From IMG/VR virus record IMGVR_UViG_2585427775_000005: a stretch of DNA of 45,946 nt; one strand, given 5' to 3'. Below are positions 3,001 through 6,000 of this stretch, in pieces. The position numbers are program-made. How positions within the stretch are numbered: position 1 is the stretch's first letter; every line of letters starts with the position of its first letter. This DNA is from a virus. Its lineage: Duplodnaviria > Heunggongvirae > Uroviricota > Caudoviricetes.

Positions 3001-6000
3001 ATTGAACGGGCCAGAACGCCAGCGGCAACGTCACGTTCCACTGACGCATCATCGTGGACAAAACCTTCACCGCGATCGGTAAGAATTCCTCCGCCAGCAT
3101 TAGCGCCGGACGGGGTGCGATTGATTTCAGATACGCAATTTCCCTTTGCCCACTCTTTTGTCAACAGCCCCTGATCAAGGTAGTCAGTCTTCATCCAGGT
3201 GGAAATGAACTTGTCGAATTCTGCCGGGCTGATACGGCGTGTTGTTGCGTGAGTGAATGCCTTTTCCACCGAATGCGCCAGTCTTCCAAGATGATGGTTT
3301 GTCAGCTTATCCAGCTCAGGATGCGAACGTACTGCAGTAAGCAGGCTCTGTATGTTTCCATCTTCCATATCCATTTCGATGCGGATCACGTCCTTGCGTT
3401 GTTCTGGTGTGGCGTGATGTTTGTATTTCTCGTCGAACTCCTGACCAAAGAAGTAGAGGTGCAGGAAGCGATGGGTAAGACTCAGGGTGGAGACGGGGAT
3501 TTCACATTCAGGGCAGTCATCGTTGCTGTCCGGGGATTCGCTTTTATCTGCGTTCTCTGTCTGAGAGTCACTTTGTTCATCGCAGTCACGGCTGACACCT
3601 GTAACAGCTTCGCCGCTGGTATTGTCAGTGCTGGCTGGTTTGTCCTGAACTGAGGGGGAAGGCGCTATAAATATCATTGTGATGCCATCTTCTCCGCCTT
3701 TTTCATAGCGGTTGCAGAATTCGGTATCAAACACACCTTCAGGCGGCAGGTCATTAACAATGGGCAAATTCACGCGAACAGGTTTTTTGAAATCCTCTTC
3801 GTCAAATCCAGCATCGTCCATTGCGACAACACCCCGTGATATTGCAACCGATAATTTTTTTGCTGTGCGCCAGTAAAAACCGCCTTTAATCCCAAGGCGT
3901 TTTCTGACTTTGTCATTTTTGGCTTCGTAATACAGTGCAATTTCTTCTTTATCAGTGCTCATTGATAAACCTCATAACTATTTTAAGGTTGTACGAATCC
4001 CTGCCATTGCTGGCATACTTAATCAACGGGTATGGTGTTAATATGGCTGGCGGGTTATCCAGCCGGTATTTCGTTATTCAGGTACAGCGATACTTTGTTT
4101 AACGGGAGACATTCACCGGAAATTTTTTGCTCGTCTCTTGCCTGATGGCAGGATTCTTTACTGGCATAAATTCCGGTAATCACATTCTGTGATTCACCCG
4201 TTATAAGAAAAACCGTCATCACCAGTGCAAATGCTGAAGTCATTGACATTCTCCGAAAATACCAAGTTCAAGAAGGGCAATTCTGGAGAGTATGGAATTA
4301 TCATTGAGAAGATAAGGCTCATATTTTCTCATCTTAATGGCATCTTCAGTAAACTCCCGGTTACTGAGCAGAATACCAATATCAAAACACCCTTCAGACG
4401 TATTAACGTTTGGTAGTGACGTTTCCATTATCGCGTCCTCAACAATGAATTTTGTTGATGCGGCGCCTGGTGCCTCCAGGTGACGTTAACCAGTTAACAA
4501 TTAACGTCGGAATACAGAAGGATGCCCGTTGCGCCCCGTAAAATACCACTTTACGGTTTTAACTGTTCCGCGTGCGCATAGCCGCATTCACCGCATCACA
4601 AAATTCACTTTAAAAAGGGCGGACATCAGTCAGCAACAAACCGATGCCGCCAATGGGTACACCACGAGGTTGCACTGGCTACACAACCGGAAGCGCACGG
4701 TCGAAGAAATTTAACGACAAGACTTATATGCAAAGAAACCTCTCCGTGCGCTTTCGTGTTATGCCATGACTTTTCAGGGTACATTAACCTGTGGAAACCT
4801 GTTTTTACTGGCGCTAATCAGTTGGCGTTTCTGGCTAACCAGCGATGCGCGCCAGCTTCGGTTTTAAACGTTTTACTTTTGGTATACGTCATCGCGGTAA
4901 ACGTGCCGTCCTGATTGGGGAAGACGCCGCACACCAGAGATTCGTTGTTGCCAAGATCGATAGTATCCATGTTGACCTCATTTCCCCTTAACGCCGGGGT
5001 AGCGGAACTGTTTGCTGAGAACACCGTGCGGTGTCTTGATGCAAGCAAGATTAGCCATGACTAACAATATGGTCAAGTATTTTTGTTTGTCATGGCTAAC
5101 ATTTTGGGCGACCAAAAAGATAACGCATTGATTGCGTTATCTTTTGTTTGTTCGTTGACGGGCTTTTAATAACTCTTCAAAGAGTTTGTTGAAATTTTTT
5201 ACTCGGGCGCGCATCTCGGTGAGCTGAGCATCCTGTTCTGATTCAGGCAATGCATTAAAAAGCTCAAGGAGCTCATGTTCTTTGGGGGATAGAGCAACTG
5301 GCTCCTCAATAGGTGGTGATGGCTGCTTGTCTTCATCGCCAAATAGAATCCATGTTGGCGAGCACTGCAGTACTTTGCTGAGGGCAAAAAGATTCTTTCC
5401 TGTAGGTTCGCTATCATCCCGCTCCCATTGTGAAACCGATACGTGAGAAATTTTCAGGACTTTAGCAAGAGACCTTTGGGTGTATTTGAGGTTTTTTCGG
5501 CGATATCTAATGCGTTCGCCAATGGTTAAATTTTTTGTATCCATAGTTAGCTAATGCTAAATCTTATTGACTATGTTTTTGTTAACATCTATTTTGTTAG
5601 CCATGGCTAACAATTAAGGTGCTTTAAATGCTTAAAACTGACGCACTTTTGTATTTCGGTTCAAAAACAAAACTTGCACAAGCTGCTGGTATTCGTTTGG
5701 CTTCGCTTTATAGCTGGAAAGGGGAGCTAGTACCTGAAGGTCGCGCGATGCGCCTGCAAGAGGCATCCGGCGGGGAACTTCAGTACGACCCCAAAGTTTA
5801 TGACGAATATCGTAAGGCAAAGCGGGCGGGGCGGTTGAACAATGAAAATCACCCCTGAACAGGTTTGTGAGGCTCTGGATGCCTGGGTGTGCCGACCAGG
5901 AATGACACAGGAACAGGCGACGATATTAATCACGGAAGCATTCTGGGCTCTGAAAGAACGCCCGAACATCGATGTTCAACGCATCACGTTTAATGATGGC

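What the first reader, a model, noticed from the sequence alone, without database searches (positions are those of the whole stretch)
5040..5627. Rac-type immunity switch with multiple GTTAGC-N-GCTAAC operators
The repressor gene is flanked on both sides by TTAGC...GCTAA palindromes, including a perfect 16-mer GTTAGCCATGGCTAAC between repressor and the ydaS-like gene and two half-site-related copies downstream of the repressor at 5051-5100. In K-12 the RacR repressor is essential because it silences the toxic ydaS/ydaT genes, so this is likely a repressor-toxin addiction switch.
Basis: partly seen in the sequence, partly recalled or inferred. Interest (0 to 1): 0.45.

Follow-up and report, generated by a model that had tools for sequence, protein, structure and literature searches.

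The report
Qin-type DicA/DicC prophage immunity switch
This is the repressor/anti-repressor control region of an E. coli prophage, a near-identical copy of the well-studied DicA/DicC switch of prophage Qin (not of Rac), whose repeated palindromes are the operators that keep the phage's cell-division inhibitors and lytic genes silent; it is real but already known.

Summary
The palindromes are real, at the stated coordinates and far above chance: 3 matches against 0.11 expected, plus a fourth related site. The family label is wrong.

- **Identity.** The region is 94% identical in DNA to the dicA-dicC immunity region of K-12 prophage Qin. The repressor is DicA (93% aa identity; no similarity to RacR). 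The "ydaS-like" gene is DicC (97%; Pfam P22_Cro; below the YdaS cut-off).
- **Operator between repressor and dicC.** The perfect 16-mer at 5596-5611 is the counterpart of Oc, the DicA operator shown genetically in K-12. It sits just after the -10 of the dicC promoter.
- **Sites downstream of the repressor.** The sites at 5050-5065 and 5085-5100 bracket the -35 and overlap the -10 of the leftward dicB-operon promoter. That operon carries ydfA, a DicF-like sRNA, dicB and ydfD.
- **Toxic cargo.** By analogy with Qin, the cargo silenced is mainly DicB/DicF, not YdaS/YdaT. The YdaT-family gene here is a CII-like regulator.
- **Comparative support.** Across 84 related loci all three strong operators read GTTAG-YY-AT-RR-CTAAC. 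The arms are invariant and only four central positions vary, by transitions only. Homologues down to 53% identity keep TTAG-N6-CTAA sites at the same places.

Verdict: an already known system, of low interest. The hypervariable operator centres are a small side observation.

The parts
5137..5544 (-). dicA: 135-aa repressor (CI analogue) with an N-terminal HTH and no LexA-type cleavage domain
   Evidence: 93% aa identity to K-12 DicA. Pfam gives HTH_3 at 6.1e-16 and only HTH families. Residues 7-71 match the P22 C2 N-terminal domain structures 1adr/2r1j/3jxb at about 2e-20.
5628..5858 (+). dicC: 76-aa Cro analogue
   Evidence: 97% aa identity to K-12 DicC. P22_Cro scores 44.5 bits against a cut-off of 30.2; YdaS_toxin scores 18.7 bits against a cut-off of 30. 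PGAP names the gene dicC.
5842..6393 (+). YdaT-family, CII-like regulator. It is the full-length version of the truncated K-12 ydfX.
   Evidence: Pfam YdaT_toxin 25.3 bits against a cut-off of 21. phrog_163 'CII-like transcriptional activator' at 1.4e-41. 88% identity to K-12 YdfX over 93 aa.
5594..5613 (.). Oc operator, TTGTTAGCCATGGCTAACAA (16-bp core at 5596-5611). It abuts the -10 of the dicC promoter and covers the expected start-site region.
   Evidence: Aligns with K-12 Oc (TTGTTAGTCATAACTAACAA), differing only at central positions. The arm base whose A-to-C change abolishes DicA binding in K-12 (PMC3441716) is retained. Arms are invariant in 84 loci.
5567..5595 (+). dicC promoter (PR analogue): -35 TTGACT at 5567-5572, 17-bp spacer, -10 TATTTT at 5590-5595
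   Evidence: Promoter scan. Nearly invariant among 84 loci. Same elements as the K-12 dicC promoter described in PMC3441716.
5573..5588 (.). Inverted repeat ATGTTTTTGTTAACAT in the dicC promoter spacer. It is a possible 'Om' and does not match TTAG-N6-CTAA.
   Evidence: Seen directly in the sequence and almost invariant in 84 loci (one rare variant). In K-12, Om did not bind DicA in vivo (PMC3441716). The assignment to Om is my inference.
5546..5561 (.). Oa-type site GTTAGCTAATGCTAAA, directly upstream of the dicA start codon
   Evidence: Perfect TTAG-N6-CTAA match. A site of this kind sits at the same position in the homologues at 75%, 65% (PPompW), 60% and 53% identity; for the Serratia locus (also 65%) the site is visible in the sequence but was cut off in the scan. 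In K-12, Oa did not bind DicA in the in vivo assay (PMC3441716). It may be a DicC site or a weak, cooperative site.
5115..5145 (.). Hairpin with T-runs on both sides that overlaps the dicA stop codon. Probable dicA terminator, insulating the dicB promoter.
   Evidence: Terminator scan: 13-bp stem. The hairpin is kept across loci, with compensatory differences between the two DicA clades (GCGTTATC versus GAGTTATC).
5085..5100 (.). Distal dicB-promoter operator (minus-strand reading GTTAGCCATGACAAAC), 8 bp upstream of the -35
   Evidence: Present in all 84 close loci, 8 bp from the -35 in 81 of them, with the same YYATRR centre rule. Counterparts exist in distant homologues.
5048..5076 (-). dicB-operon promoter (PL analogue): -35 TTGACC at 5076-5071, 17-bp spacer, -10 TAATCT at 5053-5048. 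Predicted start near 5040.
   Evidence: The -35 TTGACC is invariant, and the -10 TAATCT nearly so, in 84 loci at fixed spacing to the proximal operator. The generic scan preferred other hexamers, so the assignment rests on conservation. The start site is inferred.
5050..5065 (.). Proximal dicB-promoter operator (minus-strand reading GTTAGTCATGGCTAAT), occupying the spacer and the first 4 bp of the -10
   Evidence: Identical in K-12. Arms essentially invariant in 84 loci.
4971..5040 (-). Conserved untranslated leader of the leftward operon, function unknown
   Evidence: Conserved in homologous loci with different immunity. Its 3' half also lies upstream of ydaG in K-12 Rac.
4818..4970 (-). ydfA-like gene (DUF1391), first gene of the leftward operon
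   Evidence: Pfam DUF1391 at 7.3e-30. 90% identity to K-12 YdfA.
4617..4665 (-). DicF-like small RNA, diverged
   Evidence: Rfam DicF RF00039 at 29 bits, E 7.7e-4, below the gathering score of 48. Its terminator-like hairpin at 4648-4622 is flagged. It sits at the syntenic position.
4240..4428 (-). dicB, cell-division inhibitor
   Evidence: Pfam DicB at 1.1e-34 over its full length. 62% identity to K-12 DicB. PGAP names it dicB.
4055..4243 (-). ydfD-like gene (DUF1482)
   Evidence: Pfam DUF1482 at 4.1e-15. PGAP coordinates.
9013..9796 (+). Candidate induction module: isrK-like RNA (9013-9086), C4 antisense RNA (9112-9195) and an antirepressor-like ORF (9248-9796)
   Evidence: Rfam isrK 52.4 bits and C4 70.5 bits, both above gathering. 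ORF matches phrog_2379 'anti-repressor' at 8.8e-81. Any link to DicA is inference.

Best explanation
The region is the immunity (lysis/lysogeny) switch of an apparently complete lambdoid prophage of E. coli inserted between potC and potB. It is orthologous to the dicA-dicC-dicBp locus of the K-12 cryptic prophage Qin.

Proposed mechanism:
1. DicA is a 135-aa repressor whose HTH domain is related to P22 C2. It binds as a dimer to 16-18-bp dyads of the form GTTAG-YYATRR-CTAAC.
2. One dyad, Oc (5596-5611), lies immediately after the -10 of the rightward dicC promoter. It blocks transcription of dicC, the ydaT-like (CII-like) gene and the replication genes. In K-12 it also stimulates dicA's own transcription.
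3. Two dyads (5050-5065 and 5085-5100) overlap the -10/spacer and lie just upstream of the -35 of the leftward promoter, dicBp. They block transcription of ydfA, the DicF-like sRNA, dicB, ydfD, exo, xis and int.
4. DicC, the Cro analogue, recognises the same kind of dyad on both sides of dicA and shuts off dicA, which makes the switch bistable.
5. DicA has no self-cleavage domain, so induction must go through an antirepressor or through instability of DicA. This prophage lacks Rem but carries an Ant-like gene behind a C4 antisense RNA.

Shown here: orthology, positions, statistics and conservation of the sites and promoters. Taken from K-12 and O157 literature: DicA binding to Oc, repression of dicBp and dicC, bistability, and DicB/DicF toxicity. 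Inferred: which protein occupies each of the four sites in this phage, the transcription start sites, and the induction route.
For: - DNA is 94% identical to K-12 Qin dicC-dicA-ydfA. DicA is 93% and DicC 97% identical. PGAP annotates dicC and dicB in the identical genome record.
- Synteny is ydfD-dicB-(DicF-like)-ydfA-dicA / dicC-ydaT-O-P.
- The sites are non-random.
- In 84 loci the operator arms and promoter hexamers are invariant while linkers and operator centres vary.
- Homologues at 75%, 65%, 60% and 53% DicA identity keep TTAG-N6-CTAA dyads at the same three or four positions. Arms and centres change together across all sites of a locus.
- Literature:
  - PMC3441716: DicA binds Oc in vivo, and one arm mutation abolishes binding.
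  - PMC10448788: DicA represses dicBp 22-fold, the DicA/DicC switch is bistable, and it is antirepressor-controlled and RecA-independent.
Against: - No binding or expression data exist for this particular prophage.
- In K-12 the Oa and Om sites did not bind DicA in an in vivo assay (PMC3441716), so not every palindrome need be a DicA site.
- Reg-Seq authors listed the DicA site at dicB as low-evidence, with location unknown (PMC7567609).
- The generic promoter scan did not pick TTGACC-17-TAATCT for dicBp.
- DicF here is below the Rfam threshold and DicB is only 62% identical to K-12 DicB, so cargo toxicity is presumed.
- No Rem homologue was found.
Confidence: 0.9

Rival explanations
1. One reading: a Rac-type RacR/YdaS/YdaT repressor-toxin addiction module, in which the repressor exists to silence the toxic ydaS/ydaT genes.
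For: - Overall architecture is the same as in Rac. K-12 Rac also has operator dyads on both sides of racR, with a dyad upstream of the -35 and one in the spacer/-10 of the leftward promoter.
- The third gene is in Pfam's YdaT family.
- DicC overexpression slows growth independently of dicB/dicF (PMC11430063, PMC6915034).
Against: - No RacR similarity.
- YdaS_toxin is below its cut-off while P22_Cro is above.
- Rac operators are TTAGGC-N3-GCCTAA, not GTTAG-N6-CTAAC.
- No YdaT box (TTGATT-N6-AATCAA) lies in or near the region.
- YdaS and YdaT are now regarded as Cro and CII analogues (PMC5917428, PMC9986795, PMC11879457).
- Two of the four sites control the dicB operon, not ydaS/ydaT.
Confidence: 0.03
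2. The sites at 5050-5100 are not promoter operators but OL-like anchors. Their main role would be DicA-mediated looping to Oc, about 510-550 bp away. Alternatively they are inert relics.
For: - Lambda-type switches use OL-OR looping.
- DicA has a C-terminal domain of unknown role.
- The 35-bp centre-to-centre spacing of the two sites is not an integral number of helical turns (sequence).
Against: - They sit at a fixed distance around a conserved -35/-10 pair in 84 loci and in distant homologues.
- In K-12, dicBp is repressed 22-fold by DicA in a reporter placed away from the locus (PMC10448788), so local operators suffice.
- Invariant arms argue against relics.
Confidence: 0.07
3. Some of the palindromes, notably Oa at 5546-5561 and possibly the imperfect distal site, are read mainly by DicC (Cro analogue) rather than by DicA. 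Occupancy would then be partitioned between the two proteins, as with lambda OR3 versus OR1.
For: - DicA did not bind Oa or Om in the K-12 in vivo assay (PMC3441716).
- DicC ChIP-seq shows sites on both sides of dicA with a TTNG..CNAA palindrome (PMC11430063).
- Oa lies over the dicA start, where a Cro-like protein would be expected to act.
- Oa-type sites are conserved in all homologues.
Against: No direct data. Oa shares the TTAG-N6-CTAA core with the DicA site Oc. This is a refinement of the main explanation, not an exclusive alternative.
Confidence: 0.3

Closest known systems
Qin (Kim) cryptic prophage dicA-dicC-dicBp immunity locus of E. coli K-12
   Same: - Orthologous: 94% DNA identity over the switch, DicA 93%, DicC 97%.
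- Same Oc position and arms, identical proximal dicBp operator and same promoter hexamers.
- Same leftward cargo order: ydfA, DicF, dicB, ydfD.
   Different: - Here the prophage looks complete, with int, xis, exo, O/P, lysis, head and tail genes.
- The gene after dicC is a full-length 183-aa YdaT/CII-like gene rather than the truncated ydfX.
- ydfB and ydfC are absent.
- DicF (29 bits) and DicB (62%) are diverged.
- Oc is a perfect palindrome (CCATGG centre against TCATAA in the Oc sequence printed in PMC3441716, i.e. TTATGA on the window's + strand).
- There is no Rem; an Ant-like gene with a C4 RNA is present instead.
Phage P22 immC (C2 repressor, Cro, OR/OL operators)
   Same: The DicA HTH domain is about 59% identical to the C2 N-terminal domain. 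DicC is in Pfam's P22_Cro family. Both use divergent promoters with dyad operators. From my own knowledge, P22 operators are 18-bp dyads whose central bases are not contacted but tune affinity.
   Different: - DicA lacks the C-terminal LexA-like cleavage domain, so it is not RecA-inducible (PMC10448788).
- The recognition helix differs (SHVSVSQW here, SNVAISQW in C2).
- The arms differ: GTTAG here, against TTAAG for P22 from my memory.
Rac prophage racR-ydaS-ydaT locus of E. coli K-12
   Same: - Same layout: short non-cleavable repressor, divergent Cro-like and CII-like genes, and dyad operators at both the rightward and leftward promoters.
- The repressor is essential in the lysogen (PMC5700373).
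- DUF1391 gene and part of the leader are shared.
   Different: - Unrelated repressor sequence.
- Different operator (TTAGGC-N3-GCCTAA).
- YdaS family rather than P22_Cro.
- The leftward kil function is kilR rather than dicB/DicF.
Antirepressor-controlled lambdoid repressors (Gifsy prophages; Qin Rem; P1 immI c4-ant)
   Same: The repressor has no autocleavage domain. An antirepressor-family gene preceded by a C4 antisense RNA lies in the same prophage. Rem relieves DicA repression in K-12 (PMC10448788).
   Different: No Rem homologue. No LexA box was found near the Ant-like gene. Whether this Ant acts on DicA is untested.

Membership tests
Qin-type DicA/DicC immunity switch | DicA orthologue: about 135 aa, N-terminal C2-like HTH, no S24 cleavage domain | tested here: met
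   135 aa, 93% identical to K-12 DicA. Only HTH families found in Pfam. P22 C2 N-terminal domain matches at 2e-20.
Qin-type DicA/DicC immunity switch | Divergently transcribed DicC (76 aa, Cro-like) | tested here: met
   97% identical to K-12 DicC. P22_Cro at 44.5 bits, above its cut-off.
Qin-type DicA/DicC immunity switch | Oc operator TTGTTAG-N6-CTAACAA next to the -10 of the dicC promoter | tested here: met
   Located at 5594-5613 and aligned with K-12 Oc. The arm base critical for DicA binding is retained.
Qin-type DicA/DicC immunity switch | DicA-repressed promoter downstream of dicA that drives ydfA-dicF-dicB | tested here: met
   Tested at sequence level only. The promoter and two operators are conserved and the proximal operator is identical to K-12. 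dicB is present. Repression itself is not testable with these tools.
Qin-type DicA/DicC immunity switch | DicF sRNA in the leftward operon | tested here: inconclusive
   Rfam DicF at 29 bits against a gathering score of 48, at the syntenic position, with a terminator hairpin.
Qin-type DicA/DicC immunity switch | Physical binding of DicA and DicC to the dyads, and bistability | not testable with these tools
   Known only for K-12 and O157 orthologues (PMC3441716, PMC10448788, PMC11430063, PMC6915034).
Qin-type DicA/DicC immunity switch | Rem antirepressor in the same prophage | tested here: not met
   tblastn of K-12 Rem against the window gives no hit better than E 0.44. Rem is an accessory feature of Qin, not a defining part of the switch.
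Rac-type RacR/YdaS/YdaT module | RacR-family repressor | tested here: not met
   Best local alignment to K-12 RacR is 5/24 identities, score 26.
Rac-type RacR/YdaS/YdaT module | YdaS-family (PF15943) Cro-like protein | tested here: not met
   18.7 bits against a cut-off of 30. 29% identity over 41 aa to K-12 YdaS.
Rac-type RacR/YdaS/YdaT module | YdaT-family (PF06254) protein downstream | tested here: met
   25.3 bits against a cut-off of 21. Similarity to K-12 YdaT is only 12/29 residues locally. This family also follows dicC in Qin-type phages (ydfX).
Rac-type RacR/YdaS/YdaT module | Rac operator dyad TTAGGC-N3-GCCTAA | tested here: not met
   The Rac intergenic region and leftward promoter carry TTAGGC-N3-GCCTAA. 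The window carries GTTAG-N6-CTAAC.
Rac-type RacR/YdaS/YdaT module | YdaT box TTGATT-N6-AATCAA near ydaT | tested here: not met
   Only 3 matches with up to 2 mismatches in the window, none within 1.9 kb of the switch, which is the chance level.
Toxin-antitoxin / addiction module | A dedicated toxin whose only known role is growth arrest, neutralised by a cognate partner | not testable with these tools
   DicB and DicF are phage kil-type functions under transcriptional repression. DicC and YdaT are regulators. In orthologues, the repressor's essentiality depends on the presence of the cargo (PMC3441716, PMC10448788, PMC5917428).

The most novel reading that the evidence does not exclude
The four central positions (6, 7, 10, 11) of each DicA operator may be hotspots of variation that act as natural affinity tuners. 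Across 84 near-identical switches they change only by transitions (GTTAG-YY-AT-RR-CTAAC). Their nucleotide diversity is 2-4 times that of four-fold degenerate sites in dicA and dicC. Loci with identical dicA+dicC DNA carry up to six different operator-centre combinations.

If this reflects selection, for example to set the switching threshold or to reduce cross-repression among the several DicA-type prophages in one genome, it would be a natural allelic series of operator strengths in a bistable switch. The effect would work through indirect readout, as in the P22/434 operators. The alternatives are relaxed constraint limited to Y/R, or gene conversion among paralogous operators.
Probability: 0.2. 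Interest if true: 0.4.

Novelty: already known. Interest (0 to 1): 0.12.

Why it matters
The finding adds little beyond correct annotation. The locus is the intact-phage version of the DicA/DicC switch studied since 1986 in K-12 Qin. It therefore shows what the cryptic K-12 copy looked like before decay: a full CII-like gene, O/P replication genes, and int/xis/exo behind dicB.

Two points may be useful.
- The comparison fixes the positions of the two dicB-promoter operators relative to the -35 and -10. One recent compilation (PMC7567609) still listed these as 'location unknown'.
- The family-wide alignment defines the operator as GTTAG-YYATRR-CTAAC and exposes unusually variable centres that could be tested as affinity tuners.

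Tried and rejected
- **Rac membership.** Protein comparisons, Pfam thresholds, the Rac operator motif and a YdaT-box search all argue against it.
- **HK022 put-like leader.** I asked whether the conserved leader downstream of dicBp is an HK022 put-like antiterminator RNA. No blastn hit to HK022 was found among phages. Direct alignment to the HK022 PL and PR regions gave only weak similarity. No Rfam family matched.
- **Leader structure.** RNAalifold on 6 sequences gave a weak consensus of -3.45 kcal/mol. Single-sequence folds recover the small hairpin in only 4 of 7 sequences. Nothing is claimed from this.
- **Rem homologue.** None found.
- **LexA box near the antirepressor-like gene.** None found. 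The three CTGT-N8-ACAG matches lie elsewhere.
- **Genome-contig scan with DicA.** It returned only 5 loci. The diversity came instead from viral contigs and four phage records.
- **Original 1986 paper.** PMC311701, which defines Oa, Om and Oc, is not held, so my assignment of Oa and Om to coordinates is inferred.
- **Palindrome perfection.** Eye inspection of the Oc variant counts showed no obvious excess of perfect palindromes (as template-switch correction would give); no formal test was run.
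Full report
**Observation.**
- GTTAGCCATGGCTAAC is a perfect 16-bp palindrome at 5596-5611. It lies between the start of a minus-strand 135-aa HTH gene (5544..5137) and the start of a plus-strand 76-aa gene (5628..5858).
- ATTAGCCATGACTAAC (5050-5065) and GTTTGTCATGGCTAAC (5085-5100) lie just beyond the 3' end of the repressor gene.
- With up to 3 mismatches these are the only three matches in the 45.9-kb window, against 0.11 expected from shuffles.
- The core TTAG-N6-CTAA has three perfect matches, all here, against 0.33 expected. One of them is a fourth site at 5546-5561, directly upstream of the repressor start.
The signal lies in the near-perfect copies.

**Identity.**
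The window is 100% identical to a prophage of E. coli GE3 that lies between potC and potB. It runs int, xis, exo, DUF1482, dicB, DUF1391, repressor / dicC, YdaT-family, O-like, P, and so on through lysis, head and tail genes, so it looks like a complete lambdoid prophage.
- The stretch 4960-5640 aligns with the K-12 Qin dicC-dicA-ydfA region at 94% identity.
- The repressor is 93% identical to K-12 DicA. Its best local alignment to RacR is 5 of 24 residues.
- The 76-aa protein is 97% identical to DicC and only 29% identical over 41 aa to YdaS.
- Pfam places it in P22_Cro (44.5 bits) and below the YdaS_toxin cut-off (18.7 against 30).
- The next gene is a 183-aa YdaT-family protein (25.3 against 21 bits). 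It is 88% identical to the truncated K-12 YdfX and matches the PHROG 'CII-like transcriptional activator' at 1.4e-41.
- Leftward of the repressor lie a YdfA-like DUF1391 gene, a diverged DicF-like RNA (29 bits, below Rfam's 48), dicB (Pfam 1.1e-34) and a YdfD-like gene.

This is therefore the Qin-type DicA/DicC switch, not the Rac RacR/YdaS/YdaT one.

**What is known about the orthologue.**
- In K-12, DicA binds Oc (TTGTTAGTCATAACTAACAA) in vivo, and a single A-to-C change in one arm abolishes binding. DicA represses dicC and activates dicA. Two other sequence-predicted operators, Oa and Om, did not bind DicA in that assay (PMC3441716).
- DicA represses the dicBF-operon promoter dicBp 22-fold. 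DicA and DicC behave as a bistable CI/Cro-like switch. DicA lacks the RecA-cleavable bond and is relieved by the antirepressor Rem. Both intergenic regions are said to contain lambda-like operators (PMC10448788).
- A 2020 compilation still treated the DicA site at dicB as low-evidence, with unknown location (PMC7567609).
- Attempts to delete dicA fail unless dicB/dicF are removed. Jobling lists the Qin repressor among essential prophage repressors and argues that YdaS and YdaT are Cro and CII analogues rather than toxins (PMC5917428).

**Anatomy here.**
- *Rightward promoter.* -35 TTGACT (5567-5572), 17 bp, -10 TATTTT (5590-5595). The 20-bp Oc equivalent, 5594-5613, starts inside the -10 and covers the expected start site.
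- *Leftward promoter, read on the minus strand.* The order is:
  - dicA stop codon inside a 13-bp-stem hairpin with T-runs (5115-5145)
  - distal operator (5100-5085)
  - 8 bp
  - -35 TTGACC (5076-5071)
  - 17-bp spacer that contains most of the proximal operator (5065-5050)
  - -10 TAATCT (5053-5048)

  The predicted start is near 5040.
- The generic scan did not choose these hexamers. I assign them from conservation.

**Comparative test.**
I collected 84 loci with DicA at least 93% identical, mostly IMG/VR prophages, plus more distant homologues.
- *Close loci, rightward region.* In the dicC-dicA intergenic region (32 haplotypes), the promoter hexamers are invariant and Oa and the spacer repeat nearly so. 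The Oc arms are invariant. Only Oc positions 6, 7, 10 and 11 and the linker just outside it vary.
- *Close loci, leftward promoter.* The same rule holds for both sites. All three operators read GTTAG-[CT][CT]-AT-[AG][AG]-C(T/A)(A/T)A(C/T), with 10-13 variants each. The distal site is 8 bp from the -35 in 81 of 84 loci.
- *Distant homologues.* The homologues at 75% (Citrobacter), 65% (Serratia, PPompW phages), 60% (a Stenotrophomonas phage) and 53% (a Klebsiella phage) keep TTAG-N6-CTAA dyads at the same positions: next to the Cro-like gene's promoter, over the repressor start, and around a -35-like hexamer downstream of the repressor.
- *Co-variation.* The flanking arm base and the centre composition change together at all sites of a locus, for example CTTAG-(A/G)TTTTC-CTAAG. 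They change alongside recognition-helix changes, ISHVSVSQW against V(A/S)HVTISQW.

This is strong evidence that the four sites are one operator family read by this repressor/Cro pair.

**Mechanism.**
DicA dimers on Oc block the rightward operon (dicC, CII-like, O, P). By analogy with K-12, they also support dicA transcription. DicA on the two leftward sites occludes the -10 and -35 of dicBp and silences the DicF-like RNA, dicB, ydfD, exo, xis and int. DicC binds the same dyads and turns dicA off. Because DicA is HTH-only, induction should depend on an antirepressor or on DicA instability. There is no Rem homologue here. However, an antirepressor-family ORF (9248-9796, phrog_2379 at 8.8e-81) lies behind isrK-like and C4 antisense RNAs, as in the P1 immI arrangement. 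Its link to DicA is inference.

**Comparison with Rac.**
Reading K-12 Rac directly, racR is also flanked by dyads.
- TTAGGCGTCGCCTAA and relatives lie in the racR-ydaS region.
- ATTAGGCATAGCCTAT - TTGACA - ATTAGGCATTACCTATAGT lies downstream of racR.

The proteins and the operator sequence differ, however, and the YdaT box reported for Rac and CP-933P (PMC11879457, PMC9986795) is absent near this switch.

**Side observations.**
- Nucleotide diversity at the twelve operator-centre positions is 0.26-0.42. It is about 0.115 at four-fold degenerate sites of dicA and dicC, and 0.037 in the rest of the dicC-dicA intergenic region.
- Groups of loci with identical dicA+dicC DNA (639 nt) still carry up to six operator-centre haplotypes. 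Within such groups, 31 of 108 centre positions segregate, against 136 of 2214 other non-coding columns (Fisher p = 2.5e-12). The second figure is inflated by rearrangements in two groups.
- All changes are transitions.
- Possible causes are relaxed constraint limited to pyrimidine/purine identity, gene conversion among the paralogous operators of one or several co-resident DicA-type prophages (median 2 places per genome), or selection on operator strength.
- A conserved leader downstream of dicBp, an STnc100-like fragment, and the potC/potB insertion site are listed separately.

**Verdict.**
The element is an orthologue of a well-characterised system, already annotated as dicC/dicB by PGAP. 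Novelty: already known. Interest: low.

Noticed in passing
window 5050-5065, 5085-5100, 5596-5611 and the corresponding sites in loci L004-L092: Positions 6, 7, 10 and 11 of all three DicA operators are hypervariable. They change by transitions only, giving 10-13 variants per site among 84 loci. Diversity there is 2-4 times that of four-fold degenerate sites of dicA/dicC. Loci with identical dicA+dicC DNA differ at these positions.
   Followed up: partly
window 4971-5040, minus strand; also L003 (K-12 Rac) 1966-1999, L006, L007, L089-L091: A conserved untranslated leader lies between the dicB-operon promoter and the first gene...GUUCCGCUA-CCCC-GGCGUUAA-GGGG.... Its 3' half is also present upstream of ydaG in Rac and in phages with different immunity, with some compensatory stem changes. 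It has no Rfam family and is not convincingly HK022 put-like. Its function is unknown; processing or antitermination are guesses.
   Followed up: partly
window 9013-9796: An isrK-like RNA (9013-9086) and a C4 antisense RNA (9112-9195) lie directly upstream of an antirepressor-family ORF (9248-9796, phrog_2379 at 8.8e-81). This is a P1 immI-like c4-ant module inside a lambdoid prophage and a candidate inducer for the non-cleavable DicA. No LexA box lies nearby.
   Followed up: partly
window 4451-4605, minus strand: A weak partial match to the sRNA family STnc100 (29.8 bits, below the gathering score of 47) lies between the DicF-like RNA and dicB. A full STnc100 copy (147 bits) lies at 17127-17327 on the plus strand.
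   Followed up: no
window 1-45946 (record NZ_CP012376.1, about 1243373-1289318): The prophage is inserted between potC and potB of the spermidine/putrescine transporter operon. Its integrase gene abuts potC.
   Followed up: no
window 9899-10223 and 10326-11008: A hok/sok (hokD) type I toxin-antitoxin module lies next to an HTH gene and RelE/ParE-family toxin genes. This mirrors the hokD-relBE neighbourhood of K-12 Qin.
   Followed up: no
window 6696-6711: CTGTTAATAAAAACAG is a good LexA-box-like dyad inside the O-like replication gene. It is probably chance: 3 such matches in the window against 0.59 expected.
   Followed up: no
L003 (K-12 Rac) 2743-2865 and about 2100-2180: Rac's own operators can be read directly as TTAGGC-N3-GCCTAA dyads. 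They occur both between racR and ydaS and around a TTGACA/TATAGT promoter downstream of racR, the same two-sided layout as in the DicA switch.
   Followed up: partly
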